This document shows positions 1-63,386 of a stretch of 64,000 bases of DNA, in pieces. Where the stretch lies: NCBI RefSeq assembly GCF_964355755.1, contig NC_092678.1:9668252-9732251 (forward strand). Direction: 5' to 3'. This DNA is from Antedon mediterranea. Its lineage: Eukaryota; Animalia; Echinodermata. The notes beneath the pieces were generated by a model. The model did no database searches. It saw only the letters and a list, made by a program, of their open reading frames with translations, and had not been told where the DNA came from. Position numbers and translations under genes: made by a program. Position 1 is the stretch's first letter. Every line of letters begins with the position of its first letter.

Positions 1-190
1 GTGATTTCAATAGTGGGTTCGAACTTCTAGGGATATTTTTTTTTTTTTTTTTTTATTTGAAAATAAATATTTTTTTTGAAGGTGAGATATTTTGAGGGTT
101 GTAAATGACAGGCCTAAACAAATGAACCTTTTTTAAAATCAGAAACAAAGTTGCATGGCATTATTTTTCATTGATTTATTATTTATTTCA

Positions 191-196
191 TATAAA
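191..196 (+). promoter_or_regulatory. TATA-like element upstream of the tRNA-like unit (representative; present in nearly every monomer)
   Basis: TATAAA lies 36 to 31 bp upstream of the predicted tRNA position 1 (227), compatible with a TFIIIB/TBP site. The region is AT-rich, so chance occurrence is possible. Confidence 0.4.
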
Positions 197-226
197 TAGA
201 GTATTATCAGCTCTTCAGTCATCTAC

Positions 227-300
227 TGGTTTGTGGCGTAGCGGGTAATGCTCAAGTTTGAGTGCTCTCACTAGTGGGTTCGAACCTCTACTGATATTTT
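227..300 (+). ncRNA. Representative tRNA-like Pol III unit inside each satellite monomer (tRNA-derived, not a canonical tRNA)
   Basis: A-box TGGCGTAGCGG at 234-244 and B-box GGTTCGAACC at 277-286 with tRNA-like spacing. D-stem GCGT/ATGC can pair. A T-run follows from ~297. Acceptor and T stems pair poorly, so a functional cloverleaf is unlikely. Transcription is inferred, not shown. Confidence 0.55.
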
Positions 301-2242
301 ATTTCTTTTTTTTTTTTAATTGAAAAAATATTGTTTTTGAAAGTGAGATATTTTGAGGGTTGTAAATGTCAGGCCAAAACAAGTGAACCTTTTTTAAAAT
401 CAGAAACAAAGTTGCATGGCATTATTTTTCATTGATTGATCATTCATTTCATATAAATAGACTATTATCAGCTCCTCAGTCACCTACTGGTTGGTGGCGT
501 AACGGATAATGCTCAGGTTTGAGTTCTCTCAGTAGTGGGTTCGAACCTCTAGGGATTTTTTTTTTTAAATTGAAAATAAATATTGTTTTTGAAAGTGAGA
601 TATTTTTAGGGTTGTAAATGTCAGGCCTAAACAAGTGAACCTTTTTTTAAATCAGAAACAAAGTTGCATGGCATTATTTTTCATTGATTGATCATTCATT
701 TCATATAAATAGACTATTATCAGCTCTTCAGTCATCTACTGGTTTGTGGCGTAACGGGTAATGCTCAGTTTTGAGTGCTCTGAGTAGTGGGTCGAACCTC
801 TAGGGATATTTTTTTTCTTTTTTTTTTAAATTGAAAATAAATATGGTTTTTGAAAGTGAGATATTTTGAGGGTTGTAAATGTCAGGCCTAAACAAGTGGA
901 CCTTTTTTAAAATCAGAAACAAAGTTGCATGGCATTATTTTTCATTGATTGATCATTCATTTCATATAAATAGACTATTATCAGCTCTTCAGTCATCTAC
1001 TGGTTTGTGGCGTAACGGGTAATGCTCAGGTTTGAGTGCTCTGAGTAGTGGGTCGAACCTCTAGGGATATTTTTTTTCTTTTTTTTTTAATTGAAAATAA
1101 ATATGGTTTTTGAAAGTGAGATATTTTGAGGGTTGTAAATATCAAGCCTAAACAAGTGGACCTTTTTTAAAATCAGAAACAAAGTTTCATGGCATTATTT
1201 TTCATTGATTGATCATTCATTTCATATAAATAGACTATTATCAGCTCTTCAGTCATCTACTGGTTTGTGGCGTAACGGGTAATGCTCAAGTTTGAGTGCT
1301 CTCACTAGTGGGTTCGAACCTCTACGGATATTTTGTTTCTTTTTTTTTTTTTATTTAAAATAAATATTGTTTTTGAAAGTGAGATGTTTTGAGGGTTGTA
1401 AATGTCAGGCCTAAACAAGTGAACCTTTTTTAAAATCAGAAACAAAGTTTCATGGAATTATTTTTCATTGATTTATTATTAGTTTCATATAAATAGAGTA
1501 TTATCAGCTCTTCAGTCATCTACTGGTTTGAGGCGTAACGGGTAATGCTCAGGTTTGAGTTCTCGCAGTAGTGGGTTCGAACCTCTACGGATATTTTTTT
1601 TCTTTTTTTTTTTTATTGAAAAAAATATTGTTTTTGAAAGTGAGATATTTTGAGGGTTGTAAATGTCAGGCCTAAACAAGTGGACCTTTTTTAAAATCAG
1701 AAACAAAGTTGCATGGCATTATTTTTCATTGATTTATTATTTATTTCATATAAATAGAGTATTATCAGCTCTTCAGTCATCTACTGGTTTGTTGCGTAAC
1801 GGGTAATGCTCAAGTTTGAGTGCTCTCACTAGTGGGTTCGAACCTCTACGGATATTTTGTTTCTTTTTTTTTTTATTTAAAATAAATATTGTTTTTGAAA
1901 GTGAGATATTTTGAGGGTTGTAAATGTCAGGCCTAAACAAGTGAACCTTTTTTAAAATCAGAAACAAAGTTGCATGGCATTATTTTTCATTGATTTATTA
2001 TTCATTTCATATAAATAGAGCATTATCAGCTCTTCAGTCATCTACTGGTTTGAGGCGTAACGGGTAATGCTCAAGTTTGAGTGCTCGCAGTAGTGGGTTC
2101 GAACCTCTAGGGATATTTCTTTTCTTTTTTTTTTTATTGAAAATAAATATTTTTTTTGAAGGTGAGATATTTTGAGGGTTGTAAATGACAGGCCTAAACA
2201 AATGAACCTTTTTTAAAATCAGAAACAAAGTTGCATTGCATT

Positions 2243-2379
2243 GTCGTGGTACGTGAGACCATGCCCGGATTGATTTGGAAGTTTTCTCCCCGGGTATCAA
2301 GCGTGCGAGGCTTGGCTCAAATGAATGCAATATCAAGACCAACAGAAAGACAACAAGTTGTTGATTGCCGTTATCAGAC
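2243..2379. other. ~137-bp non-satellite insertion of unknown origin within one monomer
   Basis: GTCGTGGTACGTGAGACC...CCGTTATCAGAC replaces ATTTTT of the normal GCATTATTTTTCATTG. The paralogous empty monomer is at ~23251-23280. CATTG occurs at both ends (2239-2243 and 2380-2384). Confidence 0.9.
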
Positions 2380-3670
2380 CATTGATTTATTATTAATTTC
2401 ATATAAATAGAGTATTATCAGCTCTTCAGTCATCTACTGGTTTGAGGCGTAACGGGTAATGCTCAGGTTTGAGTTCTCGCAGTAGTGGGTTCGAACCTCT
2501 ACGAATATTTTTTTTTCTTTTTTTTTTAATTGAAAATAAATATTGTTTTTGAAAGTGACATATTTTGAGGGTTGTAAATGTCAGGCCTAAACAAGTGGAC
2601 CTTTTTTAAAATCAGAAACAAAGTTGCATGGCATTATTTTTCATTGATTGATCATTCATTTCATATAAATAGACTATTATCAGCTCCGCAGTCATCTACT
2701 GGTTTGTGGCGTAACGGATAATGCTCAGGTTTGAGTGCTTTCAGTAGTGGGTTCGAACCTCTAGGGATTTTTTTTTTTTAAATTGAAAATAAATATTGTT
2801 TTTGAAAGTGAGATATTTTGAGGTTTGTAAATGTCAGGCCTAAACAAGTGGACCTTTTTTAAAATCAGAAACAAAGTTGCATGGCATTATTTTTCATTGG
2901 TTGATCATCCATTTCATATAAATAGACTATTATCAGCTCTTCAGTTATATACTGGTTTGCGGCGTAACGGGTAATGCTCAGTTTTGAGGGATTTCAATAG
3001 TGGGTTCGAACTTCTAGGGATATTTTTTTTTTTTTTTTTATTTGAAAATAAATATTGTTTTTGAAAGTGAGATATTTTGAGGGTTGTAAATGTAAGGCCT
3101 AAACAAGTGAACATTTTTTTCAATCAGAAACAAAGTTGCATGGCATTATTTTTCATTGATTTATTATTCATTTCATATAAATAGAGTATTATCAGCTCTT
3201 CAGTCATCTACTGGTTTGAGGCGTAACGGGTAATGCTCAGGTTTGAGTGCTCTCAGTAGTGGGTTCGAACCTATACGGGTATTTTTTTTCTTTTTTTTTA
3301 AATTGAAAATAAATATTGTTTTTGAAAGTGAGATATTTTGAGGGTTGCAACTGTCAGGCCTAAACAAGTGAACCTTTTTTAAAATCAGAAACAAAGTTGC
3401 ATGGCATTATTTTTCATTGATTGATCATCTATTTCATATAAATAGACTATTATCAGCTCTTCAGTCATATACTGGTTTGCGGCGTAACGGGTAATGCTCA
3501 GGTTTGAGTGATTTCAATAGTGGGTTCGAACTTCTAGGGATATTTTTTTTTCTTTTTTTTTTTATTTGAAAATAAATATTGTTTTTGAAAGTGAGATATT
3601 TTTATGGTTTTAAATGTCAAGCCTAATCAAGTGGACCTTTTTTTAAAATCAGAAACAAAGTTGCATAACA

Positions 3671-4130
3671 TGTAATAAATTACCATTCCCTAACATATAG
3701 AGTAACATAGTATTTACATGAACATTCTAGAATAAGATGTTTTGATTTAAGAAACCATGTATAATTAATAAGAACAATCAAGAACATTCCAGAAGTGCTA
3801 TTAATAGAAACTGTAATCATGTAATAATGAGAAGTATAAAGAATGATCTAGAAGGATAGGAGCATCTTGTATATAAAGGGATGTAAACTATTGTAAGGTT
3901 GTTGGATTAGAGGTTGGATTAGAGGTTGGATGTTATATTGTAAAGTCATTGTGAAGCTGTTGTTTAAAGTGCTTACTGGATTGTTAAAAGTTGAAGTTGA
4001 TTGAAATTAAAGCTTTGTTTTTGAGTTATTTTACAACTTTGTGGATTTTGTGTGTATACTTTTATGTCACAAGGGAGTTCCTAAAGTATTTTCAACCGCT
4101 CGGAAACATACGTGAGAGGAGTTCGTGACA
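3671..4130 (+). repeat. 5' LTR (460 bp)
   Basis: Begins TGTAATAAAT and ends TTCGTGACA. Contains TATATAAA at 3870-3877 and ATTAAA at 4006-4011. Matches 9200-9659. Confidence 0.97.
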
Positions 4131-4135
4131 TAATT

Positions 4136-4148
4136 TGGTGGCAGCGGT
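4136..4148 (+). promoter_or_regulatory. Primer-binding site complementary to the 3' end of tRNA-Leu (AAG/TAG type)
   Basis: TGGTGGCAGCGGT, 5 nt after the 5' LTR, is the reverse complement of ACCGCTGCCACCA, the 3' end of metazoan tRNA-Leu(AAG/UAG) as recalled. Confidence 0.8.
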
Positions 4149-4463
4149 TATTTCGATCTACTGTTCGACTTAACTGTGTATTTATCTACTGTTGGGATAT
4201 TTTGTGGTAGCAGTTTGATCTACTGTATTTTGCCATAGATTGGTGGCTGTTTTAGGATCAACTGTACTTTATTGATATTTTGAGGAAGCGGTACTTACGA
4301 TACTGTGATATTTTACGGAAGCCGTGGTGCTACGTTTTGTTTAATCGTAAGTACACAAACATTGTTTAAAGAACAGTAGATTATTTTATTTGGAACAGTA
4401 GACTTGTGAACGTCTCGGTAACTACGATTAACTAGTAACAAGACCCTCATCCAGATTTAAAAT

Positions 4464-7400
4464 ATGGCTGATAAACAATCAACAACAAGATCCGGTAGAG
4501 AATACAGCGGCGGCGATGAATCTGATTCTGAGGTAGAATCGGTTCAGTCAATACAACCTGAACAACAGGCAGAAGAGTCTGGACCAACCAGTGGACATAA
4601 CCCTACAGGGGCTGACTCATCTTCAAAAGATGTTTTGTTGTTGATGCAGCAGCAAATGCAGCAGCAAATGCAGCAGCAAATGCAGCAGCAAATGCAACAA
4701 CAGAATCTTATGATGCAGCAGATGATGGAACAACAAGAACGTTTACGCAAAGAAGATATGGAAAGACAAGAACGTTTACGTAGGGAAGATATGGAGAAAC
4801 AGCAAGCATTAGTAATGGCGTTAATGGACAAGCAAAAGGACAGTGAGGAGAAACGATTAAAAGACATAATGAGATTGAAGGAAGTTCAGATTGCAAAACT
4901 TTCTGATAGTGATGATATTGAAAATTATCTCACTACGTTTGAACGTATTGCTAACACCTATGAGTGGCGAAAAGAACACTGGGTAGTAAAACTAATACCT
5001 CATTTGACAGGCAAAGCAAGAGCAGCCTATGCATCACTACCAGTGACAGAAAGTAACCAGTACGACATAGTGAAGAAAGCAATATTACAAAGGTATGACA
5101 TAACTGAAGAGACATATAGGCAAAGGTTTAGGTCAATTAAAAAGAAAAGTGAAGAAAGTTATAGAGAAATGTATGTTAGGTTAAAAGATTTATTTACTAA
5201 GTGGGCTAGGCCTGCTGAAAAAAGCAAAGATGATTTAGCTGAAATTGTTATTTTAGAGCAATTAATAGATATTATGCCCACAGGGGTACAAATTTGGGTT
5301 AAAGAACATAAACCAGATTCTGGATTAAATGCTGCAGAATTAGCAGATAATTATTTTCAAGCTAGAAAAGGTATCGATTTTGAGAAAAAGTTTCAAAATA
5401 GAAAACACGAAAATAGAAACAACCAGGAGAAAACAGTGAAAGGCACTCCTGAAGTTGACAGTAAGGGTAATAATAATCCCCCTGATAACTTTCATAAATC
5501 ACATTCTGACGCTAGACAACCTCTCGTTTGTAGACGGTGCAAAAAAGTAGGCCACATAGAACGATTTTGTCGAAGTAAGGATGGCTTTTTGTCGACAAAG
5601 ACAGATACTGTTTCAAAACCATGTACACCTTACGTTTGTAGAGGCCTAGTTGAAGGATGTGATTGTGAAATTTTGATAGACTCTGGATGTGATATGACAC
5701 TTGTTCATTCTGATTTAGTAGCGGCTAAGAAAATTAATCGCGCGGAGCAAGCTAAAATTACATGCAGGTGCGTCCATGACCATGTCCAAGCCTATCCTAC
5801 TGCATTCGTCAATATTAAGGTTAATAACGAAGACCATAATTTGTTGGTTGGCGTTTGCAGCGATTTACCAAGAGATGTAATTCTTGGTAGGGACTTTCCT
5901 AAATTTGGAGACTTATTAGGGAAGGGGGATAAGAATCATGATAGGCATAGTTTTGTTGCCACTAGAGATCATGCTAGAAAAGAGAAACTAAGAGAGGAAA
6001 ACGAATTAAATTCGGAAAAAGCTTCTGGGGTTATTTCACATCAGTTAGATGATGTGGTTAATTTTCAAGAAGAATTTGGACATTTAGATGGCCAACTACT
6101 CAGTAACAACCCTCCCAAGGAAAAAGTTCATAAAACCAGAAGTGAGAAACGAAAAGTTAGGAAAGAGTTTGCAAAAACAAAGGAAGTTCAATCTAGCCAA
6201 GATAGTGAATTAGACATTTTAGATATTGGCAGAGATAAAATTAAGGATTATCAGGTTAAGGATAGAACTTTAATTTCACTTCGAGAACAGATGTTAGTAC
6301 AGAAAGATGATGACACTATAAAGATAGTCTATAAGGATGGAATTTTATTTAGGCTGGTTTTCACTAAACACCAGACAGAACCAATAGAGCAATTAGTGGT
6401 TCCATACCCTTGCCGTAATAGTGTATTGAAAGTCTCACATGATATTCCTTTGGCAGGTCATTTAGGTAGGAAAAAGACATTAGATAGGATAAAGCAGAGA
6501 TTCTTTTGGCCTGGTATTAGAAAGGATGTGACCGAATATTGCAACACTTGTGAAAATTGCCAGAAAACTTCAAAGTATAAAACTAAATTGAAGGCCCCGA
6601 TGATTCCTATGCCAATAATCAGTGAACCATTCCGCCGAATCACTATGGACATTGTTGGTCCACTAGCACGGAGTAAGACAGGAAATAAATATGTCTTGGT
6701 TATATGTGATTATGCAACTCGATATCCGGAGGCTATCCCACTGAGAAGTATTGAAGCTCCAAAGATAGCGGATGAGTTGATTAAATTATTTTCCAGGGTA
6801 GGGGTACCAACAGAAATTTTAACCGATCAAGGTTCTAACTTTACCTCTAAGTTGTTGAGTCAAATTTATAAGTTACTTTCAATTAAGGGCTTGACTACTT
6901 CTCCCTACCATCCACAAACCGATGGATTAGTGGAAAGATTTAATGGCACCCTTAAGGCTATGATTAGAAAATTTGTTCAGGATGATCCCCGAGAATGGGA
7001 TAAATTGCTTCCGTACCTATTATTTGCTTATAGGGAGGTACCGCAGGAGTCAACTGGGTTCTCTCCATTTGAATTATTGTATGGTTGGAAGGTACGAGGT
7101 CCACTTGATATAATGAAAGAAATGTGGACAGGCACGGTGACAGGTCCTCAAAGTGTGGTTTCCAACGTTGTTAAAATGAGAGATAGGTTAACTTCAATGA
7201 AAGATCTAGTCCAGGAAAACATTGAACTATCCCAAACAAGGCAAAAACAAAAATATGATCAGAAATCTGTTTGTAGAGAATTTAGTCCAGGTGATGAAGT
7301 CCTATTACTCTTACCATCTAGTAACGATGCATTAGAGGCAAAATGGCAAGGTCCTTACAAGGTTTTAAGGAAACTAGGTCCAGTAAACTATGAGGTGGAA

Positions 7401-8972
7401 ACTAATGATAAACGGAAAAAGTCAAAAGTCTACCACATAAATCTTTTAAAACAATTTCATCGTAGAACTATTGAGGTTATGCTGGCTATAAATGATGTAA
7501 CTGGACAAGACGAGGGTCAGGATAAGGACATTTCTTGGTCAAATATTTCTAGTTCCAATTTAACCTTAGATTCTGGTGAAGGATTAGATGAATCTCAGCT
7601 TTCAGATTTAGCGGAGGTGTTTTCTGAATTTGACTCAGTGTTACAGGACAAGCCAGGGAAAACTACTGTAATAAAGCATGATATTGAAATGAACCTAGGG
7701 GTACACCCAGTTAGATTAAGAGCTTATCCAATTCCTCAGGCTAAGTTAGGCAAAGTAAAAGAAGAGATAGAATCTATGTTGGAACTTGGGGTAATAGAAG
7801 AGTCTCACAGTCCCTGGTCCTCTCCTTATATCATGGTACCAAAGCCGGACGGTACAGCTCGCTTTTGCGTAAATTACAAAAAAGTGAATAGCTTGAGCAA
7901 GTTTGATGCATATCCAATGCCTCGAATAGATGAAATAATAGGCAGGGTTGGTCCTGCTAAATTTATAACAAAGTTAGATTTATGTAAAGGTTACTGGCAG
8001 GTTCCGTTAACTGAACGGTCAAAACCATATACTGCTTTTTCAACACCAATGGGTTTGTACCAATTTAAGTATTTACCATTTGGCTTGCATGGGGCTCCTG
8101 CAACGTTTCAAAGAATGATGGATCAACTGTTGCGCAAGAAAGAATCTTATGCAGCAGCTTATATGGATGATCTGGTAATATTTAGTCCAGACTGGGAAAG
8201 TCATATCCATCATCTTAGGGACATTTTTCGGACCCTCAAGCAAGCTAATCTGACAGTCAAACCTGCAAAATGTAGTTTCGCACATAGTAAAGTGCATTAT
8301 TTAGGGTATGTAGTTGGAGAGGGAATGATACGTCCTCAAAAGACTAAGGTAGAAGCGGTAGTACAATGGGAAAAACCTAAAACTAAGAAGGATGTTAAAT
8401 CTTTTCTTGGCCTGACAGGATACTACCGAAAGTTTATTCCTAATTATGCTGACATTGCAGCACCTCTAACTGATCTGACGGGGAAAAAACATCCAGATAA
8501 AATCAAATGGACGCCTGAGTGCGAAGATGCACTTGTAAAGTTAAAACAGGCGTTATGTTCAGACCCTGTGTTACGAAACCCAGATTTTAATGCAGAGTTT
8601 ATACTGCAAACAGATGCTTCAGATCGAGGGTTAGGTGCAGTACTTAGTCAACTAGGTCCTGATGGTACTGACCATCCAGTATTGTATCTTAGTCGTAAGA
8701 TGTTCCCAAGAGAACAGAATTATGCAACTATAAAGAAAGAGTGTTTAGCTATAAAATGGGCTGTCGAAAGTCTGCGATATTATCTACTAGGCAGAAAATT
8801 TAAGATAGTTACTGACCATCAACCACTCAAATGGTTGGTTGAAATGAAAGAGACAAACAAAAGACTAACTAGATGGAGTCTTGATTTACAACCTTATTGC
8901 TTTACTGTTGTACATAGAAGGGGTATTTCTAATGGTAATGCTGACGGATTGTCACGAAAACCATTAACTTAA
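4464..8972 (+). CDS. Gag-Pol polyprotein, 1502 aa (SCAN-like capsid, CCHC knuckle, aspartic protease, integrase, RT, RNase H)
   Basis: SCAN-like segment YRQRFR...LKDLFTKWARP...VILEQLIDIMP...WVKEHKPDS (~5110-5360). Knuckle CRRCKKVGHIERFC (~5529-5570). Protease LIDSGC (~5680). Integrase HHCC (HDIPLAGHLG...CENC), D-D-E (MDIVGP, TDQGSNF, VERFNGTLK) and GPY motif. RT motifs LDLCKGYWQ, PFGLHGAPATFQ and YMDD (~8160). RNase H motifs TDASD, ECLAI, TDHQPL and NADGLSR. No stops or frameshifts. Confidence 0.97.
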   Translation: MADKQSTTRSGREYSGGDESDSEVESVQSIQPEQQAEESGPTSGHNPTGADSSSKDVLLLMQQQMQQQMQQQMQQQMQQQNLMMQQMMEQQERLRKEDMERQERLRREDMEKQQALVMALMDKQKDSEEKRLKDIMRLKEVQIAKLSDSDDIENYLTTFERIANTYEWRKEHWVVKLIPHLTGKARAAYASLPVTESNQYDIVKKAILQRYDITEETYRQRFRSIKKKSEESYREMYVRLKDLFTKWARPAEKSKDDLAEIVILEQLIDIMPTGVQIWVKEHKPDSGLNAAELADNYFQARKGIDFEKKFQNRKHENRNNQEKTVKGTPEVDSKGNNNPPDNFHKSHSDARQPLVCRRCKKVGHIERFCRSKDGFLSTKTDTVSKPCTPYVCRGLVEGCDCEILIDSGCDMTLVHSDLVAAKKINRAEQAKITCRCVHDHVQAYPTAFVNIKVNNEDHNLLVGVCSDLPRDVILGRDFPKFGDLLGKGDKNHDRHSFVATRDHARKEKLREENELNSEKASGVISHQLDDVVNFQEEFGHLDGQLLSNNPPKEKVHKTRSEKRKVRKEFAKTKEVQSSQDSELDILDIGRDKIKDYQVKDRTLISLREQMLVQKDDDTIKIVYKDGILFRLVFTKHQTEPIEQLVVPYPCRNSVLKVSHDIPLAGHLGRKKTLDRIKQRFFWPGIRKDVTEYCNTCENCQKTSKYKTKLKAPMIPMPIISEPFRRITMDIVGPLARSKTGNKYVLVICDYATRYPEAIPLRSIEAPKIADELIKLFSRVGVPTEILTDQGSNFTSKLLSQIYKLLSIKGLTTSPYHPQTDGLVERFNGTLKAMIRKFVQDDPREWDKLLPYLLFAYREVPQESTGFSPFELLYGWKVRGPLDIMKEMWTGTVTGPQSVVSNVVKMRDRLTSMKDLVQENIELSQTRQKQKYDQKSVCREFSPGDEVLLLLPSSNDALEAKWQGPYKVLRKLGPVNYEVETNDKRKKSKVYHINLLKQFHRRTIEVMLAINDVTGQDEGQDKDISWSNISSSNLTLDSGEGLDESQLSDLAEVFSEFDSVLQDKPGKTTVIKHDIEMNLGVHPVRLRAYPIPQAKLGKVKEEIESMLELGVIEESHSPWSSPYIMVPKPDGTARFCVNYKKVNSLSKFDAYPMPRIDEIIGRVGPAKFITKLDLCKGYWQVPLTERSKPYTAFSTPMGLYQFKYLPFGLHGAPATFQRMMDQLLRKKESYAAAYMDDLVIFSPDWESHIHHLRDIFRTLKQANLTVKPAKCSFAHSKVHYLGYVVGEGMIRPQKTKVEAVVQWEKPKTKKDVKSFLGLTGYYRKFIPNYADIAAPLTDLTGKKHPDKIKWTPECEDALVKLKQALCSDPVLRNPDFNAEFILQTDASDRGLGAVLSQLGPDGTDHPVLYLSRKMFPREQNYATIKKECLAIKWAVESLRYYLLGRKFKIVTDHQPLKWLVEMKETNKRLTRWSLDLQPYCFTVVHRRGISNGNADGLSRKPLT
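4644..4703 (+). repeat. 12-bp coding minisatellite (ATGCAGCAGCAA)x4 plus one variant, encoding (MQQQ)5 in the Gag N-terminus
   Basis: Read directly. It is followed by an 11-aa duplication, MEQQERLRKED / MERQERLRRED. Confidence 0.92.
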
Positions 8973-9184
8973 AGCAAGGGTTACTTTACAAATAGACAAA
9001 ATAGGTTTTAATGTTTATAAGTTACTTGTTTCTTACATTTTGTTTGTAATGAGAATTTGGTTTTCACGTAATGTAGTTTGAATTTATATTCATATATTAA
9101 ACAGGGTTTCTAGGTCGAAAATGATATATTTGCCACGTCCGTGTATACTTGCCCCTCAAAACTCCAAGAAAGAGTTTTGAGCTC

Positions 9185-9199
9185 AGAAAGAGGGGGGAG
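9185..9199 (+). promoter_or_regulatory. Polypurine tract
   Basis: AGAAAGAGGGGGGAG immediately precedes the TG of the 3' LTR. Confidence 0.92.
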
Positions 9200-9659
9200 T
9201 GTAATAAATTACCATTCCCTAACATATAGAGTAACATAGTATTTACATGAACATTCTAGAATAAGATGTTTTGATTTAAGAAACCATGTATAATTAATAA
9301 GAACAATCAAGAACATTCCAGAAGTGCTATTAATAGAAACTGTAATCATGTAATAATGAGAAGTATAAAGAATGATCTAGAAGGATAGGAGCATCTTGTA
9401 TATAAAGGGATGTAAACTATTGTAAGGTTGTTGGATTAGAGGTTGGATTAGAGGTTGGATGTTATATTGTAAAGTCATTGTGAAGCTGTTGTTTAAAGTG
9501 CTTACTGGATTGTTAAAAGTTGAAGTTGATTGAAATTAAAGCTTTGTTTTTGAGTTATTTTACAACTTTGTGGATTTTGTGTGTATACTTTTATGTCACA
9601 AGGGAGTTCCTAAAGTATTTTCAACCGCTCGGAAACATACGTGAGAGGAGTTCGTGACA
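9200..9659 (+). repeat. 3' LTR (460 bp)
   Basis: Same length as 3671-4130, with no differences detected by manual comparison. Confidence 0.97.
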
Positions 9660-51600: not shown

Positions 51601-54600
51601 CTCCTCAGTCACCTACTGGTTGGTGGCGTAATGGATAATGCTCAGGTTTGAGTTCTCTCAGTAGTGGGTTCGAACCTCTAGGGATTTTTTTTTTTAAATT
51701 GAAAATAAATATTGTTTTTGAAAGTGAGATATTTTGAGGGTTGTAACTGTCAGGCCTAAACAAGTGAACCTTTTTTAAAATCAGAAACAAAGTTGCATGG
51801 CACTATTTTTCATTGATTTATTATTAATTTCATATAAATAGACTATTATCAGCTCTTCAGTCATCTACCGGTTTGTAGCGTAACTGGTAGTGCTCAGGTT
51901 TGAGTTCTCGCAGTGGTGGGTTCGAACCTCAACGAATATTTTTTATTTATTTTTTTTTTTATTGAAAATAAATATTGTTTTTGAAAGTGAGATATTTTTA
52001 GGGTTGTAAATGTCAGGCCTAAACAAGTGAACCTTTTTTTAAATCAGAAACAAAGTTGCATGGCATTATTTTTCATTGATTGATCATTCATTTCATATAA
52101 ATAGACTATTATCAGCTCTTCAGTCATCTACTGGTTTGTGGCGTAACGGGTAATGCTCAGTTTTGAGTGCTCTGAGTAGTGGGTCGAACCTCTAGGGATA
52201 TTTTTTTTCTTTTTTTTTTTAAATTGAAAATAAATATGGTTTTTGAAAGTGAGATATTTTGAGGGTTGTAAATGTCAGGCCTAAACAAGTGGACCTTTTT
52301 TAAAATCAGAAACAAATTTGCATGGCATTATTTTTCATTGATTAATCATTCATTTCATATAAATAGACTATTATCAGCTCTTCAGTCATCTACTGGTTTG
52401 TGGCGTAACGGGTAATGCTCAAGTTTGAGTGCTCTCACTAGTGGGTTCGAACCTCTACGGATATTTTGTTTCTTTTTTTTTTTTATTTAAAATAAATATT
52501 GTTTTTGAAAGTGAGATATTTTGAGGGTTGTAAATGTCAGGCCTAAACAAGTGAACCTTTTTTAAAATCAGAAACAAAGTTGCATTGCATTATTTTTCAT
52601 TGATTTATTATTAATTTCATATAAATAGAGTATTATCAGCTCTTCAGTGATCTACTGGTTTGAGGCGTAACGGGTAATGCTCAGGTTTGAGTTCTCGCAG
52701 TAGTGGGTTCGAACCTCTACGAATATTTTTTTTTTTTTTTTTTTTTTATTGAATATAAATATTGTTTTTGAAAGTGAGATATTTTGAGGGTTGTAAATGT
52801 CAGGCCTAAACAAGTGGACCTTTTTTAAAATCAGAAACAAAGTTGCATGGCATTATTTTTCATTGATTTATTATTTATTTCATATAAATAGAGTATTATC
52901 AGCTCTTCAGTCATCTACTGGTTTGTGGCGTAACGGGTAATGCTCAAGTTTGAGTGCTCTCACTAGTGGATTCGAACCTCTACGGATATTTTGTTTCTTT
53001 TTTTTTTATTTAAAATAAATATTGTTTTTGAAAGTGAGATATTTTGAGGGTTGTAAATGTCAGGCCTAAACAAGTGAACCTTTTTTAAAATCAGAAACAA
53101 AGTTGCATGGTATTATTTTTCATTGATTTATTATTAATTTCATATAAATAGAGTATTATCAGCTCTTCAGTCATCTACTGGTTTGAGGCGTAACGGGTAA
53201 TGCTCAGGTTTGAGTTCTCGCAGTAGTGGGTTCCAACCTCTAGGGATATTGCTTTTTTTTCTTATTGAAAATAAATATTTTTTTTGAAAATGAGATATTT
53301 TTTAGGGTTGTGAATGTCAGGCCTAAACAAATGGATATTTTTTAAAATCAGAAACAAAGTTGCATGGCATTATTTTTCATTGATTGATCATTCATTTCAT
53401 ATAAATAGACTATTATCAGCTCTTCAGTCATCTACTGGTTTGTGGCGTTACGGATAATGCTCAGGTTTGAGTGCTCTGAGTAGTGGGTCGAACCTCTAGG
53501 GATATTTTTTTTCTTTTTTTTTTAAATTGAAAATAAATATGGATTTTGAAAGTGAGATATTTTGAGGGTTGTAAATGTCAGGCCTAAACAAGTGGACCTT
53601 TTTTAAAATCAGAAACAAAGTTGCATGGCATTATTTTTCATTGATTTATTATTTATTTCATATAAATAGAGTATTGTCAGCTCTTCAGTCATCTACTGGT
53701 TTGTGGCGTAACGGGTAATGCTCAAGTTTGAGTGCTCTCACTAGTGGGTTCGAACCTCTACGGATATTTTGTTTCTTTTTTTTTTTTTAATTAAAATAAA
53801 TATTGTTTTTGAAAGTGAGATGTTTTGAGGGTTGTAAATGTCAGGCCCAAACAAGTGGACCTTTTTTAAAATCAGAAACAAAGTTGCATGGCATTATTTT
53901 TCATTGATTTATTATTAGTTTCATATAAATAGAGTATTATCAGCTCTTCAGTTATCTACTGGTTTGTGGCGTAACGGGTAATGCTCAAGTTTGAGTGTTC
54001 TCACTAGTGGGTTCGAACCTCTACTGATATTTTATTTCTTTTTTTTTTTAATTGAAAAAATATTGTTTTTGAAAGTGAGATATTTTGAGGGTTGTAAATG
54101 TCAGGCCAAAACAAGTGAACCTTTTTTAAAATCAGAAACAAAGTTGCATGGCATTATTTTTCATTGATTGATCATTCATTTCATATAAATAGACTATTAT
54201 CAGCTCCTCAGTCACCTACTGGTTGGTGGCGTAACGGATAATGCTCAGGTTTGAGTTCTCTCAGTAGTGGGTTCGAACCTCTAGGGATTTTTTTTTTTAA
54301 ATTGAAAATAAATATTGTTTTTGAAAGTGAGATATTTTGAGGGTTGTAAATGTCAGGCCTAAACAAGTGAACCTTTTTTAAAATCAGAAACAAAGTTGCA
54401 TGGCACTATTTTTCATTGATTTATTATTAATTTCATATAAATAGACTATTATCAGCTCTTCAGTCATCTACTGGTTTGTAGCGTAACTGGTAGTGCTCAG
54501 GTTTGAGTTCTCGCAGTGGTGGGTTCGAACCTCTACGAATTTTTTTTTTCTTTTTTTTTAATTTAAAATAAATATGGTTTTTGAAAGTGAGATAGTTTGA

Positions 54601-57600
54601 GGGTTGTAAATGTCAGGCCTAAACAAGTGGACCTTTTTTAAAATCAGAAACAAAGTTACATGGCATTATTTTTCATTGATTTATTATTTATTTCATATAA
54701 ATAGAGTATTATCAGCTCTTCAGTCATCTACTGGTTTGTGGCGTAACGGGTAATGCTCAAGTTTGAGTGCTCTCACTAGTGGGTTCGAACCTCTACTGAT
54801 ATTTTATTTCTTTTTTTTTTTAATTGAAAAAATATTGTTTTTGAAAGTGAAATATTTTGAGGGTTGTAAATGTCAGGCCAAAACAAGTGAACCTTTTTTA
54901 AAATCAGAAACAAAGTTGCATGGCATTATTTTTCATTGATTGATCATTCATTTCATATAAATAGACTATTATCAGTTCCTCAGTCACCTACTGGTTGGTG
55001 GCGTAACGGATAATGCTCAGGTTTGAGTTCTCTCAGTAGTGGGTTCGAACCTCTAGAGATTTTTTTTTTTAAATTGGAAATAAATATTGTTTTTGAAAGT
55101 GAGATATTTTTAGGGTTGTAAATGTCAGGCCTAAACAAGTGAACCTTTTTTTAAATCAGAAACAAAGTTGCATGGCATTATTTTTCATTGATTGATCATT
55201 CATTTCATATAAATAGACTATTATCAGCTCTTCAGTCATCTACTGGTTTGTGGCGTAATGGGTAATGCTCAGTTTTGAGAGCTCTGAGTACTGGGTCGAA
55301 CCTCTAGGGATATTTTTTTTCTTTTTTTTTTAAATTGAAAATAAATATGGTTTTTGAAAGTGAGATATTTTGAGGGTTGTAAATATCAGGCCTAAACAAG
55401 TGGACCTTTTTTAAAATCAGAAACAAAGTTGCATGGCATTATTTTTCATTGATTTATTATTTATTTTATATAAATAGAGTATTATCAGCTCTTCAGTCAT
55501 CTACTGGTTTGTGGCGTAACGGGTAATGCTCAAGTTTGAGTGCTCTCACTAGTGGGTTCGAACCTCTACAGATATTTTTTTTTTTTTTTTTTATTTAAAA
55601 TAAATATTGTTTTTGAAAGTGAGATTTTTTGAGGGTTGTAAATGTCAGGCCTAAACAAGTGAACCTTTTTTAAAATCAGAAACAAAGTTGCATTGCATTA
55701 TTTTTCATTGATTTATTATTAATTTCATATAAATAGAGTATTATCAGCTCTTCAGTCATCTACTGGTTTGAGGCGTAACGGGTAATGCTCAGGTTTGAGT
55801 TCTCGCAGTCGTGGGTTCGAATCTCTACGAATATTTTTTATTTATTTTTTTTTTTTATTGAAAATAAATATTGTTTTTGAAAGTGAGATATTTTGAGGGT
55901 TGTAAATGTCAGGCCTAAACAAGTGGACCTTTTTTAAAATCAGAAACAAAGTTGTATGTCAATATTTTTCATTGATTTATTATTTATTTCATATAAATAG
56001 AGTATTATCAGCTCTTCAGTCATCTACTGGTTTGTGGCGTAACGGGTAATGCTCAAGTTTGAGTGCTCTCACTAGTGGGTTCGAACCTCTACGGATATTT
56101 TTTTTTTTTTTTTTATTTAAAATAAATATTGTTTTTGAAAGTGAGATATTTTGAGGGTTGTAAATGTCAGGCCTAAACAAGTGAACCTTTTTTAAAATCA
56201 GAAACAAAGTTGCATGGCATTATTTTTCATTGATTTATTATTAATTTCATATAAATAGAGTATTATCAGCTCTTCAGTCATCTACTGGTTTGAGGCGTAA
56301 CGGGTAATGCTCAGGTTTGAGTTCTCGCAGTAGTGGGTTCGAACCTCTAGGGATATTGCTTTTTTTTTTCTTATTGAAAATAAATATTTTTTTTGAAAAT
56401 GAGATAGTTTGAGGGTTGTAAATGTCAGGCCTAAACAAGTGGACCTTTTTTAAAATCAGAAACAAAGTTGCATGGCTTTATTTTTCTTTGATTTATTATT
56501 TATTTCATATAAATAGACTATTATCAGCTCTTCAGTTATCTACTGGTTTGTGGCGTAACGGGTAATACCCAGGTTTGAGTGCTCTCAGTAGCGGGTTCCA
56601 ACCTCTAGGGATATTGCTTTTTTTTTTCTTATTGAAAATAAATATTTTTTTTGAAAATGAGATATTTTTTAGGGTTGTAAATGTCAGGCCTAAACAAATG
56701 GATCTTTTTTAAAATCAGAAACAAAGTTGCATGGCATTATTTTTCATTGATTGATAATTCATTTCATATAAATAGACTATTACCAGCTCTTCAGTCATCT
56801 ACTGGTTTGTGGCGTAACCGGTAGTGCTCAGGTTTGAGTTCTCGCAGTAGAAGGTTCGAACCTCTACGAATATTTTTTTTCTTTTTTTTTACATTGAAAA
56901 TAAATATGGTTTTTGAAAGTGAGATATTTTTAGGGTTGTAAATGTCAGGCCTAAACAAGTGAACCTTTTTTTAAATCAGAAACAAAGTTGCATGGCATTA
57001 TTTTTCATTGATTGATCATTCATTTCATATAAATAGACTATTATCAGCTCTTCAGTCATCTACTGGTTTGTGGCGTAACGGGTAATGCTCAGTTTTGAGT
57101 GCTCTGAGTACTGGGTCGAACCTCTAGGGATATTTTTTTTCTTTTTTTTTTAAATTGAAAATAAATATGGTTTTTGAAAGTGAGATATTTTGAGGGTTGT
57201 AAATATCAGGCCTAAACAAGTGGACCTTTTTTAAAATCAGAAACAAAGTTGCATGGCATTATTTTTCATTGATTGATCATCCATTTCATATAAATAGACT
57301 ATTATCAGCTCTTCAGTCATAAAATGGTTTGCGGCGAACGGGTAATGCTCAGGTTTGAGTGATTTCAATAGTGGGTTCGAACCTATACGGGTATTTTTTT
57401 TCTTTCTTTTTTTATTTGAAAATAAATATTGTTTTTGAAGGTGAGATATTTTGAGGGTTGTAAATGTCAGGCCTAAACAAGTGAACCTTTTTTAAAATCA
57501 GAAACAAAGTTGCATGGCATTATTTTTCATTGATTTATTATTCATTTCATATAAATAGAGTATTATCAGCTCTTCAGTCATCTACTGGTTTGAGGCGTAA

Positions 57601-60600
57601 CGGGTAATGCTCAAGTTTTAGTGCTCGCAGTAGTGGGTTCGAACCTCTAGGGATATTTCTTTTCTTTTTTTTTTATTGAAAATAAATATTTTTTTTGAAG
57701 GTGAGATATTTTGAGGGTTGTAAATGACAGGCCTAAACAAATGAACCTTTTTTAAAATCAGAAACAAAGTTGCATGGCGTTATTTTTCATTGATTGATCA
57801 TTAATTTCATATAAATAGACTATTATCAGCTCTTCAGTCATCTACTGGTTTGTGGCGTAACCGGTAGTGCTCAGGTTTGAGTTCTCGCAGTAGTGGGTTC
57901 GAACCTCTACGAATATTTTTTTTCTTTTTTTTTAATTGAAAATAATATTGTTTTTGAAAGTGAGATAGTTTGAGGGTTGTAAATGTCAGGCCTAAACAAG
58001 TGAACCTTTTTTAAAATCAGAAACAAAGTTGCATGGCATTATTTTTCATTGCTTTATTATTCATTTCATATAAATAGACTATTATCAGCTCTTGAGTTAT
58101 CTACTGTTTTGTGGCGTAAAGGGTAATACCCAGGTTTGAGTGCTCTCAGTAGCGGGTTCCAACCTCTAGGGATATTACTTTTTTTTTCTTATTGAAAATA
58201 AATATTTTTTTTGAAAATGAGATTTTTTTTAGGGTTGTGAATGTCAGGCCTAAACAAGTGGACCTTTTTAAAAATCAGAAACAAAGTTGCATGGCATTAT
58301 TTTTCATTGATTTATTATTTATTTCATATAAATAGAGTATTATCAGCGCTCTTCAGTCATCTACTGGTTTGTCGTGTAACGGGTAATGCTCAAATTTGAG
58401 TGCTCTCACTAGTGCGTTCGAACCTCTACGGATATTTTGTTTTTTTTTTTTTTTTATTTAAAATAAATATTGTTTTTGAAAGTGAAATATTTTGAGGGTT
58501 GTAAATGTCAGGCCTAAACAAGTGAACCTTTTTTAAAATCAGAAACAAAGTTGCATGGCATTATTTTTCATTGATTTATTATTAATTTCATATAAATAGA
58601 CTATTATCAGCTCTTCAGTCATCTACTGGTTTGTAGCGTAACTGGTAGTGCTCAGGTTTGAGTTCTCTCAGTAGTGGGTTCGAACCTCTAGGGATTTTTT
58701 TTTTAAATTGAAAATAAATATTGTTTTTGAAAGTGAGATATTTTTAGGGTTGTAAATGTCAGGCCTAAACAAGTGAACCTTTTTTTAAATCAGAAACAAA
58801 GTTGCATGGCCTTATTTTTCATTGATTGATCATTCATTTCATATAAATAGACTATTATCAGCTCTTCAGTCATCTACTGGTTTGTGGCGTAACGGGTAAT
58901 GCTCAGTTTTGAGTGCTCTGAGTAGTGGGTCGAACCTCTAGGGATATTTTTTTTCTTTTTTTTTAAATTGAAAATAAATTTGGTTTTTGAAAGTGAGATA
59001 TTTTGAGGGTTGTAAATGTCAGGCCTAAACAAGTGGATCTTTTTTTAAATCAGAAACAAAGTTGCATGGCATTATTTTTCATTGATTGATCATTCATTTC
59101 ATATAAATAGACTATTATCAGCTCTTCAGTCATCTACTGGTTTGTGGCGTAACGGGTAATGCTCAGGTTTGAGTGCTCTAAGTAGTGGGTCGAACCTCTA
59201 GGGATATTTTTTTTCTTTTTTTTAAAATTGAAAATAAATATGGTTTTTGAAAGTGAGATATTTTGAGGGTTGTAAATATCAGGCCTAAACAAGTGGACCT
59301 TTTTTAAAATCAGAAACAAAGTTGCATGGCATTATTTTTCATTGATTTATTATTTATTTCATATAAATAGAGTATTATCAGCTCTTCAGTCATCTACTGG
59401 TGTGTGGCGTAACGGGTAATGCTCAAGTTTAAGTGCTCTCACTAGTGGGTTCGAACCTCTACGGATATTTTGTTTCTTTTTTTTTATTTAAAATAAATAT
59501 TGTTTTTGAAAGTGAGATATTTTGAGGGTTGTAAATGTCAGGCCTGAACAAGTGAACCTTTTTTAAAATCAGAAACAAAGTTGCATTGCATTATTTTTCA
59601 TTGATTTATTATTAATTTCATATAAATAGAGTATTATCAGCTCTTCAGTCATCTACTGGTTTGAGGCGTAACAGGTAATGCTCAGGTTTGAGTTCTCGCA
59701 GTAGTGGGTTCGAACCTCTACGAATATTTTTATTTTTTTTTTTTATTGAAAATAAATATTGTTTTTGAAAGTGAGATATTTTGAGGGTTGTAAATGTCAG
59801 GCCTAAACAAGTGGACCTTTTTTAAAATCAGAAACAAAGTTGCATGGCATTATTTTTCATTGATTTATTATTTATTTCATATAAATAGAGTATTATCAGC
59901 TCTTCAGTCATCTACTGGTTTGTGGCGTAACGGGTAATGCTCAAGTTTGAGTGCTCTCACTAGTGGGTTCGAACCTCTACGGATATTTTGTTTCTTTTTT
60001 TTTTTTTTTTTTAAATAAATATTGTTTTTGAAAGTGAGATATTTTGAGGGTTGTAAATGTCAGGCCTAAACAAGTGAACCTTTTTTAAAATCAGAAACAA
60101 AGTTGCATGGCATTATTTTTCATTGATTTATTATTAATTTCATATAAATAGACTATTATCAGCTCTTCAGTCATCTACTGGTTTGTAGCGTAACTGGTAG
60201 TGCTCAGGTTTGAGTTCTCGCAGTGCTGGGTTCGAACCTCTACGAATATTTTTTTTCTTTTTTTTTTAAATTTAAAATAAATATGGTTTTTGAAAGTGAG
60301 ATAGTTTGAGGGTTGTAAATGTCAGGCCTAAACAAGTGGACCTTTTTTAAAATCAGAAACAAAGTTGCATGGCATTATTTTTCATTGATTTATTATTTAT
60401 TTCATATAAATAGAGTATTATCAGCTCTTCAGTCATCTACTGGTTTGTGGCGTAACGGGTAATGCTCAAGTTTGAGTGCTTTCACTAGTGGGTTCGAACC
60501 TCTACTGATATTTTATTTCTTTTTTTTTTTTTTAATTGAAAAAATATTGTTTTTGAAAGTGAGATATTTTGAGGGTTGTAAATGTCAGGCCAAAACAAGT

Positions 60601-61952
60601 TAACCTTTTTTAAAATCAGAAACAAAGTTGCATGGCATTATTTTTCATTGATTGATCATTCATTTCATATAAATAGACTATTATCAGCTCCTCAGTCACC
60701 TACTGGTTGGTGGCGTAACGGATAATGCTCAGGTTTGAGTTCTCTCAGTAGTGGGTTCGAACCTCTAGGATTTTTTTTTTAAAATTTGAAAATAAATATT
60801 GTTTTTGAAAGTGAGATATTTTTAGGGTTGTAAATGTCAGGCCTAAACAAGTGAACCTTTTTTTAAATCAGAAACAAAGTTGCATGGCATTATTTTTCAT
60901 TGATTGATCATTCATTTCATATAAATAGACTATTATCAGCTCCTCAGTCACCTACTGGTTGGTGGCGTAACGGATAATGCTCAGGTTTGAGTTCTCTCAG
61001 TAGTGGGTTCGAACCTCTGGGATTTTTTTTTTTAAATTGAAAATAAATATTGTTTTTGAAAGTGAGATATTTTTAGGGTTGTAAATGTCAGGCCTAAACA
61101 AGTGAACCTTTTTTTAAATTAGAAACAAAGTTGCATGGCATTATTTTTCATTGATTGATCATTCATTTCATATAAATAGACTATTATCAGCTCTTCAGTC
61201 ATCTACTGGTTTGTGGCGTAACGGGTAATGCTCAGGTTTGAGTGCTCTGAGTAGTGGGTCGAACCTCTAGGGATATTTTTTTTCTTTTTTTTTTAAATTG
61301 AAAATAAATATGGTTTTTGAAAGTGAGATATTTTGAGGGTTGTAAATATCAGGCCTAAACAAGTGGACCTTTTTAAAAATCAGAAACAAAGTTGCATGGC
61401 ATTATTTTTCATTGATTTATTATTTATTTCATATAAATAGAGTATTATCAGCTCTTCAGTCATCTACTGGTTTGTGGCGTAACGGGTAATGCTCAAGTTT
61501 GAGTGCTCTCACTAGTGGGTTCGAACCTCTACGGATATTTTGTTTCTTTTTTTTTTATTATTTAAAATAAATATTGTTTTTGAAAGTGAGATATTGTGAG
61601 GGTTGTAAATGTCAGGCCTAAACAAGTGAACCTTTTTTAAAATCAGAAACAAAGTTGCATGGCATTATTTTTCATTGATTTATTATTTATTTCATATAAA
61701 TAGAGTATTATCAGCTCTTCAGTCATCTACTGGTTTGTGGCGTAACGGGTAATGCTCAAGTTTGAGTGCTCTCACTAGTGGGTTCGAACCTCTACGGATA
61801 TTTTGTTTCTTTTTTTTTTTTTATTTAAAATAAATATTGTTTTTGAAAGTGAGATATTTTGAGGGTTGTAAATGTCAGGCCTAAACAAGTGAACCTTTTT
61901 TAAAATCAGAAACAAAGTTGCATTGCATTATTTTTCATTGATTTATTATTAA
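9660..61952 (+). repeat. ~260-bp tandem satellite, tRNA-derived (main segment, ~200 monomers)
   Basis: The same monomer continues in one orientation to 61952, where ...ATTTATTATTAA switches to a different repeat. Copy number is estimated from length divided by period. Confidence 0.97.
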
Positions 61953-63310
61953 ATGCGATTTGAAGCTTTTCCAAGCACTTTGCTGTTTTTATGTTACCAA
62001 GCTTTTTCGAAAATCACAAGATGGTCTAAAACGTCTCCAAATGCGATTTGAAGATATTCTGAGCACTTTGGTGTTTTAATGTTAAAAAGTTTTTTCGAAA
62101 ATCACAAAATGGTCTAAAACGTCTCCAAATGCGATTTGAAGCTATTCTGTACACTTTGATGTTTTGTGTGAAAAAGTTTTGTCAAAATGCTCAAAATGAT
62201 CTAAAACGTTTTTAAAACGATATTAAGCTATTTTGTGCTCTTTGATGTTTTTGTATAACCAAGTTTTTTCGAAAATCACAAAATGGTCTAAAACGTCTCC
62301 AAATGCGATTTGAAGCTTTTCCAAGCACTTTGCTGTTTTTATGTTAACAAGTTTTTTCGAAAATCACAAAATGGTCTAAAACGTCTCCAAATGCGATTTG
62401 AAGATATTCTGAGCACTTTGGTGTTTTTATGTTAAAAAGTTTTTTCGAAAATCACAAAATGGTCTAAAACGTCTCCAAATGCGATTTGAAGCTATTCCGT
62501 ACACTTTGATGTTTTGTGTGAAAAAGTTTTGTCGAAATGCTCAAAATGGTCTAAAACGTTTTTAAAACGATATTAAGCTATTTTGTGCTCTTTGATGTTT
62601 TTGTGTAACCAAGTTTCATCGAAATGAACAAAATGGTCTAAAACGTCTCCAAATGCGATTTGAAGCTTTTCCAAGCACTTTGCTGTTTTTATGTTAACAA
62701 GTTTTTTCGAAAATCACAAAATGGTCTAAAACGTCTCAAAATGCGATTTGAAGGTATTCTGAGCACTTTGGTGTTTTTGTGTGAAAAGTTTTAACGAAAT
62801 GCTCAAAATGGTCTAAAACGGTTCTAATGTGATTTTAAGCACTTTGATGTTTTTGTATAACCAAGTTTCATCGAAATGCACAAAATGGTCTAAAACGTCT
62901 CCAAATGCGATTTAAAGCTATTCTGACACTTTGATGTTTTGTGTGAAAAAGTTTTCTCGAAATGCTCAAAATGGTCTAAAACGTTTTCCAATACCATATT
63001 AAGCTATTTTGTGCAATTTGATGTTTTTGTGTAACCAAGTTTTTTGAAATGCGATTTGAAGATATTCTGAGCACTTTGGTGGTTTTATGTTCAAAAGTTT
63101 TTTCGAAAATCACAAAATGGTCTAAAACGTCTCCAAATGCGATTTGAAGATATTCTGAGCACTTTGGTGTTTTTATGTTAAAAAAGTTTTTTCGAAAATC
63201 ACAAAATGGTCTAAAACGTCTCCAAATGCGATTTGAAGCTATTCTGTACACTTTGATGTTTTGTGTGAAAAAAGTTTTGTCGAAATCCTCAAAATGGTCT
63301 AAAACGTTTT
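61951..63310. repeat. ~88-bp tandem repeat (~15 units) with a 350-bp 4-mer higher-order period
   Basis: The unit AAATGCGATTTGAAG...CACTTTG...TTTTCGAAAATCACAAAATGGTCTAAAACGTCTCC starts at 61951, 62039 and 62127. The GCTTTTCCAAG variant recurs at 61951, 62301 and 62651. Confidence 0.93.
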
Positions 63311-63355
63311 TAGTCACGTGGAAGCGACTCTATAGTTCACTATGTCGGTCGGTCG

Positions 63356-63386
<31 letters not shown>

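What the first reader, a model, noticed from the sequence alone, without database searches (positions are those of the whole stretch)
1..61952. A >55-kb satellite whose monomer is laid out as a complete tRNA-type Pol III transcription unit
Seen: each ~260-bp monomer has, in order on the + strand, TATAAA, a ~30-bp spacer, an A-box (TGGCGTA(A/G)CGG), a B-box (GGTTCGAACC) and a long oligo-dT tract about 10 nt later. Numbering from the A-box T as T8 gives G10, A14, G18-G19, A21, T33, and G53-T54-T55-C56-G57-A58-C61 with a 4-nt variable loop, which is the invariant tRNA skeleton. The D-stem pairs. The acceptor stem does not pair and the T and anticodon stems are imperfect. Established: A and B boxes bind TFIIIC, runs of 4-5 T terminate Pol III, and tRNA genes and B-boxes can act as chromatin barriers and cohesin/condensin loading sites. 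Inference: this is an amplified array of ~215 tRNA-like small-RNA genes (~80-90 nt products) or a TFIIIC-binding chromatin domain, not necessarily inert satellite.
Basis: partly seen in the sequence, partly recalled or inferred. Interest (0 to 1): 0.8.

Follow-up and report, generated by a model that had tools for sequence, protein, structure and literature searches.

The report
Satellite built from a worn tRNA
A 260-base repeat, likely from a feather star, carries the worn remains of a transfer-RNA gene in each of about 213 copies, and its promoter letters vary as freely as the rest, so it is likely a tRNA-derived satellite that is now drifting rather than a working gene cluster, a kind already described in frogs and newts.

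Summary
The layout is real: 213 monomers (about 260 bp, 55,961 bp) carry TATA, A-box, B-box and T-run; 0 of 20,000 shuffles gave it. The body is tRNA-derived: a class I covariance model places it in register (best 22.4 bits, most 8-15; intact tRNAs mostly 40-80). Its closest tRNA is Leu, then Arg(ACG); related copies in read contigs keep a 12-13-nt variable region.

It is not a tRNA and shows no current selection: stems are broken, compensation is absent, the 14 invariant sites change as often as base-matched outside sites, and only 58-72 of 207 copies keep both boxes. An intact Gmr1-like retrotransposon splits the array; its protein points to Antedon. Expression is untested.

Verdict: likely a tRNA-gene-derived satellite of the amphibian OAX / PolIII-TAN / Rana-polIII kind. 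I found none reported from echinoderms. The scan noted this kind before in other genomes (e1-9535991, e1-7880797). Open point: the consensus keeps all 14 invariants while about 30-40% of other sites differ, hinting at earlier promoter selection; a third of copies could still be transcribed.

The parts
1..3670 (+). 260-bp tRNA-derived satellite, left part (runs off the window start)
9660..61950 (+). 260-bp tRNA-derived satellite, main part, about 200 monomers, no fixed higher-order period
191..196 (+). example monomer: TATAAA, 36 nt before the tRNA-like position 1
227..297 (+). example monomer: degenerate tRNA body (monomer positions 39-109), closest to tRNA-Leu
234..244 (+). example monomer: A-box
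277..286 (+). example monomer: B-box GGTTCGAACC
297..317 (+). example monomer: oligo-dT tract, predicted Pol III terminator
40962..41033 (+). best-scoring tRNA-like body (22.4 bits, E 6.6e-5 with class I model R2)
3671..9659 (+). Gmr1-like LTR retrotransposon inserted in the spacer (monomer position about 237); identical 460-bp LTRs, 4-bp target duplication
4464..8972 (+). intact 1502-aa polyprotein ORF: SCAN, protease, integrase, RT, RNase H

Best explanation
The monomer holds a decayed tRNA-type unit (TATA, A-box, B-box, T-run) and likely arose from a genomic tRNA gene, likely tRNA-Leu, that was likely copied as DNA with its flanks, amplified in tandem, and is now likely drifting as satellite. 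Steps: (1) a tRNA-Leu-like Pol III gene lost its cloverleaf but kept its promoter bases (decay shown; a phase of promoter retention inferred); (2) most of the long variable arm was deleted (inferred from related copies that keep 12-13 nt); (3) the unit with about 150 bp of AT-rich 3' flank was multiplied by unequal exchange and mixed by recombination or gene conversion (mosaic haplotypes shown; mechanism inferred); (4) today the boxes mutate like spacer (shown). About a third of copies keep both boxes and could yield an 80-85-nt RNA ending in U, as a by-product (predicted, untested).
For: tRNA origin: best local score to 195 unique real tRNAs 41, against 23.9 +/- 2.9 (max 36) in 300 shuffles; model R2 hits lie in register, up to 22.4 bits. 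Isotype: Leu best in 133 of 200 balanced draws, Arg 48; Leu profile max 18.1 bits, Arg 13.2; with the 14 invariants fixed, 4 of 300 shuffles reached the observed score. Loose ends of read contigs show relatives with 12-13 nt between the anticodon arm and the B-box, against 4 here and 15 in tRNA-Leu. Gene-like end: T-run directly after the tRNA 3' end, no A-tail. Drift: invariant sites no better kept than base-matched outside sites; 58-72 of 207 copies intact; 1 double-change pair in 207 copies at 19 stem pairs; intact copies no closer to consensus elsewhere (p 0.23). Mixing: 297 of 561 pairs of common sites show all four gametes. A fresh retrotransposon insertion and a 131-bp insert are tolerated. 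Precedent: PMC10702118 and PMC12054243, passages.
Against: The consensus keeps 14 of 14 invariants while only 34/57, 36/58 or 37/52 other aligned sites match the best tRNAs (rough binomial 0.001-0.008). Pure drift from an intact tRNA gene would not favour the boxes, though the finding was picked because the boxes are visible. The TATA box is the least variable block (0.0097 per site), not significant against base-matched sites (p 0.39), and is rare in the real-tRNA panel (5 of 266). Leu and Arg(ACG) tie at 53.5 in global alignment, and the Leu-specific covariance model gave no significant hit (best 9.4 bits, E 1.8). The panel is Leu-heavy (113 of 278) by how it was fetched. Lack of selection among copies does not exclude a function of the array as a whole.
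Confidence: 0.65

Rival explanations
1. An OAX-like amplified Pol III gene family or TFIIIC-bound chromatin domain: the intact third of copies is transcribed or bound, and the array is kept for its RNA or as a barrier or condensin-loading block.
For: Full TATA-A-B-T layout in 71 of 207 copies; all 14 invariants in the consensus despite about 30-40% change elsewhere; the block shared with related copies starts at the first T of the TATA box (loose ends at 21219). PolIII/TAN is transcribed in vitro (PMC10702118 passage); OAX is transcribed in oocytes (title in reference lists).
Against: No box conservation among copies; no conserved or compensated RNA fold; broken-box haplotypes are amplified as freely as intact ones.
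Confidence: 0.18
2. The monomer comes from a tRNA-headed mobile element (a SINE or a non-autonomous element) one copy of which expanded in place between short direct repeats.
For: Promoter bases kept while the cloverleaf decays is typical of SINE heads (own knowledge). Low-depth related contigs carry the TATA-to-anticodon block and part of the spacer, then end in a second TATA-like stretch and other DNA, as a single unit between short direct repeats would (tables 5, 7, 8; read from loose-end consensus only).
Against: A strong T-run straight after the tRNA head would stop Pol III before any body or tail; there is no sense-strand A-tail; the unit keeps about 36 nt upstream of the tRNA start, which an RNA copy would lack.
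Confidence: 0.13
3. The tRNA likeness comes from a mitochondrial tRNA (for example Ser-UGA in a nuclear insertion), or is chance.
For: ARAGORN's relaxed fold reads a TGA anticodon with a short variable loop. The strand is T- and G-rich, and a crinoid mitogenome is 44.9% T (PMC10478607, start of abstract).
Against: ARAGORN mitochondrial mode: 4 calls on 207 monomers against 2 on shuffled bodies; no frame longer than 66 aa under code 9 across two monomers. Ser scores below Leu and Arg. Layout 0 of 20,000 by chance. No crinoid mitogenome was compared.
Confidence: 0.04

Closest known systems
Rana/polIII (about 250-nt tandem repeat of water frogs; PMC10702118 passage)
   Same: Tandem unit of similar size with a tRNA-like segment (64% over 64 nt there; about 60-70% at non-invariant aligned sites here) and no known SINE beyond it.
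   Different: Echinoderm host; here TATA and a terminator flank the tRNA part directly. Sequence homology not tested.
Xenopus OAX / satellite 1 and newt PolIII/TAN (PMC10702118, PMC12054243 passages; the OAX paper itself was not held)
   Same: Tandem repeats holding a tRNA-derived segment with Pol III potential.
   Different: Those have shown transcription (PolIII/TAN in vitro; OAX in oocytes by its title); none is shown here. PolIII/TAN is from tRNA-Glu by retroposition (title); this unit looks like a DNA-level copy of a Leu-like gene.
SINE-derived satellites sSat1-3 of squamates (PMC10702118 passages)
   Same: Satellite whose unit includes Pol III box sequence of tRNA origin.
   Different: Those units are parts of a known SINE; here the unit has both boxes plus TATA and terminator, and no parent SINE is shown.
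Tandem tRNA gene arrays (own knowledge)
   Same: Head-to-tail units with A-box, B-box and terminator.
   Different: Bodies here fail tRNA tests and are not better conserved than spacer.

Membership tests
functional tRNA gene | invariant bases of the A- and B-box and T33 | tested here: met
   14 of 14 in the consensus, but in only 58 of 207 copies
functional tRNA gene | passes a tRNA finder or covariance model | tested here: not met
   ARAGORN 0 at default; no Rfam tRNA hit in 3 scans covering 3,922 bases; R2 at most 22.4 bits against 39.5-81.6 for full-length tRNAs on four held-out loci (a mutated Leu copy on L008 scored 24.9 and AT-rich ones on L033 15-57)
functional tRNA gene | paired cloverleaf kept by compensatory change | tested here: not met
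   T stem 3 of 5, anticodon stem 3 of 5, acceptor 5 of 7 in the consensus; 1 double-change pair in 207 copies
tRNA-related tandem repeats (OAX, PolIII/TAN, Rana/polIII kind) | long head-to-tail array | tested here: met
tRNA-related tandem repeats (OAX, PolIII/TAN, Rana/polIII kind) | tRNA-derived segment with A- and B-box in the unit | tested here: met
tRNA-related tandem repeats (OAX, PolIII/TAN, Rana/polIII kind) | Pol III transcription in vitro or in vivo (shown for some members) | not testable with these tools
   no raw RNA reads on offer
tRNA-related tandem repeats (OAX, PolIII/TAN, Rana/polIII kind) | sequence homology to the amphibian families | not tested
   their sequences were not at hand; the claim is likeness of kind, not descent
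SINE or SINE-derived satellite | dispersed parent element with target-site duplications | tested here: inconclusive
   no genome held; only low-depth related contigs seen
SINE or SINE-derived satellite | head read through into a body and an A-rich or LINE-derived tail | tested here: not met
   T-run directly after the head in nearly all copies; no sense-strand A-tail
selected multigene array (rDNA, 5S or tRNA type) | gene part more conserved than spacer across copies | tested here: not met
Gmr1-like LTR retrotransposon (the insertion) | SCAN, protease, integrase, RT, RNase H in that order between LTRs | tested here: met
   definition from bioRxiv 10.1101/2025.03.03.638093 passages; LTRs and target duplication

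The most novel reading that the evidence does not exclude
A crinoid has turned a tRNA-Leu-derived, TATA-driven Pol III gene into a satellite-scale gene family, an echinoderm counterpart of Xenopus OAX, in which the intact third of copies makes an abundant 80-85-nt non-tRNA RNA or forms a large TFIIIC-bound chromatin block, with selection acting on the array as a whole rather than on single copies.
Probability: 0.15. Interest if true: 0.65.

Novelty: new member of a known kind. Interest (0 to 1): 0.3.

Why it matters
As it stands, it is a clear example of a satellite born from a whole Pol III gene, outside the amphibians where this kind is described, with likely older relatives still in the genome that record the loss of the variable arm. 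The mix of intact and broken promoter haplotypes side by side is a ready internal control: one small-RNA or CUT&Tag experiment would show whether a satellite full of A/B-boxes is bound and read by Pol III or silenced. If it is active, it would be a very large Pol III or TFIIIC domain in an animal. If silent, it is ordinary satellite DNA with a traceable origin.

Tried and rejected
Expression: no RNA holder listed among 5 runs; this says nothing either way. X1 (RNA is only a guess) is contigs; they cover spacer as well as body, and its summed depths over satellite, LTR and retroelement interior fall in the same order and about the same proportions as in X2, X4 and X5, so it may be DNA; contigs cannot show strand, ends or level. 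Summed depth on the satellite is about 100-300 times that on the retroelement interior in all four runs, hinting at many more copies than the window holds, but the tool states that this is no copy number. The T-tract was skipped as repeat in both lays.

No whole genome held. Exact 40-base monomer stretch in metagenome contigs: 0 loci. Rfam: no tRNA or other credible family. Phage blastn of the body: 2 records with a 22-base match, taken as chance. Leu-only covariance model R1: best 9.4 bits, E 1.8, close to non-satellite hits of 8.3 and 7.4, so the Leu call rests on sequence and on the long-armed relatives, not on structure. Higher-order repeat: no dominant lag up to 79 monomers, apart from 16 near-identical pairs at lag 54. 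Targeting of the retrotransposon to the Pol III units: flanks at other insertions are mixed (agreement about 0.5), so no targeting shown. Kinship of the 88-bp satellite to the 260-bp monomer: score 35 against 24.8 +/- 3.7, max 41, in 300 shuffles; not shown. Mitochondrial origin: no support. Look-alikes among earlier findings by sequence, near or relatives: none. Literature: 'Antedon' + 'satellite DNA' 0 papers; searches listed no crinoid or echinoderm tRNA-derived satellite in titles or abstract starts. The library lacks most subscription papers; Dfam, Repbase and SINEBase could not be searched.
Full report
Observation. The window is almost all one tandem array of about 260 bp, from base 1 to 61950, followed by an 88-bp satellite. 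A fuzzy anchor finds 213 monomers; 207 of regular length were aligned and 5 longer intervals were left out. Mean pairwise divergence is 7.2%, with 176 distinct sequences among 207. Each monomer has TATAAA at positions 3-8, an A-box at 46-56, a B-box at 89-98 and a T tract from about 109. In 20,000 dinucleotide shuffles of the consensus the A+B spacing arose 5 times and the full layout never. The patterns were written knowing the sequence, so this shows only that the layout is far from chance. Exact motifs are less universal than stated: 103 A-box and 122 B-box matches.

Host. The array is split by a 5,989-bp LTR retrotransposon (3671-9659) with identical 460-bp LTRs, a 4-bp target duplication and an intact 1502-aa ORF in the order SCAN, protease, integrase, RT, RNase H. 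That order defines Gmr1-like elements (bioRxiv 10.1101/2025.03.03.638093, passages). Residues 1000-1500 are 100% identical to a protein that its source names as from Antedon mediterranea, so the host is likely this feather star or a close relative. No whole genome was held.

Is the body a tRNA relic? ARAGORN finds nothing at default but makes 98 calls at -ps80 and 14 at -ps90, nearly all at positions 30-40 to 109-110, against 9 and 0 on body-shuffled monomers. Rfam gave no tRNA hit in three scans. I collected 278 real tRNA genes (195 unique) from 119 metagenome loci; the panel is rich in Leu (113 of 278) because of the search pattern. The body's best local score is 41, against 23.9 +/- 2.9 (max 36) for 300 shuffles. 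A class I covariance model built from 70 of these tRNAs lists 175 matches at E up to 10, all but 14 of them on the plus strand over the body, best 22.4 bits (E 6.6e-5) and mostly 8-15 bits. Full-length tRNAs on four held-out loci score 39.5-81.6; a mutated Leu copy scored 24.9 and AT-rich ones on L033 15-57. So the origin is real and the state is that of a pseudogene.

Which tRNA? Leu leads by local alignment, by profile HMM (18.1 against 13.2 bits for Arg) and in 133 of 200 balanced draws (Arg 48), but Leu and Arg(ACG) tie in global alignment, and a Leu-only covariance model gives nothing significant. Read contigs bear on this. In runs X2, X3 and X4, 5-10 contigs each share the TATA-to-anticodon block and then carry 13 nt before a B-box-like motif (loose-end consensus, agreement 0.60-0.71); in X5, 3 contigs carry 12 nt (agreement 0.94). 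The window has 4 nt there and tRNA-Leu 15. The '4-nt variable loop' is therefore likely a deletion from a class II (Leu-type) ancestor. This rests on 30-letter loose ends from one sample; I could not recover the relatives in full.

Is it selected now? No sign. Per-site divergence is 0.061 in the A-box and 0.053 in the B-box against 0.038 in the spacer. The 14 invariant positions are no better kept than base-matched outside sites by divergence (P 0.80) or by changes on a tree (3.3 against 2.8, P 0.73), and carry more distinct alleles; recombination inflates tree counts on both sides. All 14 survive in 58 of 207 copies and an A..B pattern in 72 of 207. The T and anticodon stems pair at 3 of 5 positions each, the acceptor at 5 of 7 and the D stem at 4 of 4 in the consensus, with one double-change pair in all 207 copies at 19 pairs. 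Four predicted transcripts fold no better than shuffles (z -1.16 to 0.08); the two real tRNAs folded gave -2.17 and -1.27, so this test is weak. Of 561 pairs of common sites, 297 show all four gametes, as expected from exchange among copies.

What points the other way. The consensus has all 14 invariants, while 60-71% of other aligned sites match the best tRNAs. That suggests a past phase in which the promoter was kept while the cloverleaf decayed, though the finding was selected for visible boxes. The TATA box is the least variable block, not significantly so, is rare in the panel (5 of 266), and marks the start of the block shared with the relatives. About a third of copies look able to be transcribed.

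Mechanism. A terminator straight after the tRNA end (as in 226 of 266 panel genes, duplicates included), about 36 nt of retained upstream flank and no A-tail fit a DNA-level copy of a gene better than a retroposed SINE. Tandem growth and mixing by unequal exchange is inferred. Any RNA would be an 80-85-nt by-product. The runs on offer could not test expression (see Tried and rejected).

Known kinds. Tandem repeats with a tRNA-related part are described in amphibians: OAX, PolIII/TAN (about 360 nt, transcribed in vitro), Rana/polIII (about 250 nt, 64% over 64 nt to tRNA) and Hy/polIII (PMC10702118 and PMC12054243, passages). The OAX paper was not held; of PMC2114352 I saw part of the abstract and a reference entry; PMC12692304 passages add only that satellites arise from SINEs and other elements. 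No supplements were read. I found no echinoderm case (listings only). Earlier notes of this scan describe the same kind in other genomes, with no sequence look-alike to this one.

Verdict. Observation confirmed with corrections; interpretation partly supported. New member of a known kind, interest 0.3; active-array reading 0.15, worth 0.65 if true.

Noticed in passing
window 3671-9659: Intact, very young SCAN-bearing Gmr1-like LTR retrotransposon (LTRs identical at 460 of 460 bases; primer-binding site complementary to the 3' end of tRNA-Leu). The paper read on SCAN elements surveyed vertebrates; relatives also appear in Branchiostoma. Read contigs show the empty site and mixed flanks at other insertions.
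   Followed up: partly
window about 2243-2380: A 131-bp unique insertion in one monomer, at nearly the same spacer position (about 235-241) as the retrotransposon (about 237); the array end (about 258) and the break with the related copies (about 245) also lie just upstream of the TATA box. Few events; other rearrangements lie elsewhere.
   Followed up: partly
read contigs on window 21125-21385: Low-depth relatives of the monomer with a longer variable region and different DNA upstream of TATA; some end in a second TATA-like stretch, as a single unit between short direct repeats would. Possible founder copies of the satellite.
   Followed up: partly
window 61951-63309: A second, 88-bp satellite with 262- and 350-bp higher-order periods abuts the array directly; kinship to the 260-bp monomer not shown.
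   Followed up: partly
window 63314-64000: Element with a (TGTC)n-type microsatellite near its start (63343-63434), resembling a DINE-1/HINE-type non-autonomous element (recalled, not tested).
   Followed up: no
window 9772-9961, 24145-24334, 37778-37966; 19185-19219, 34875-34909; 1-2242 and 20258-22492: Shared rare marks (a 100-bp and a 14-bp internal duplication) and a 2.2-kb block at 97.9% identity record recent multi-kb duplications within the array.
   Followed up: partly
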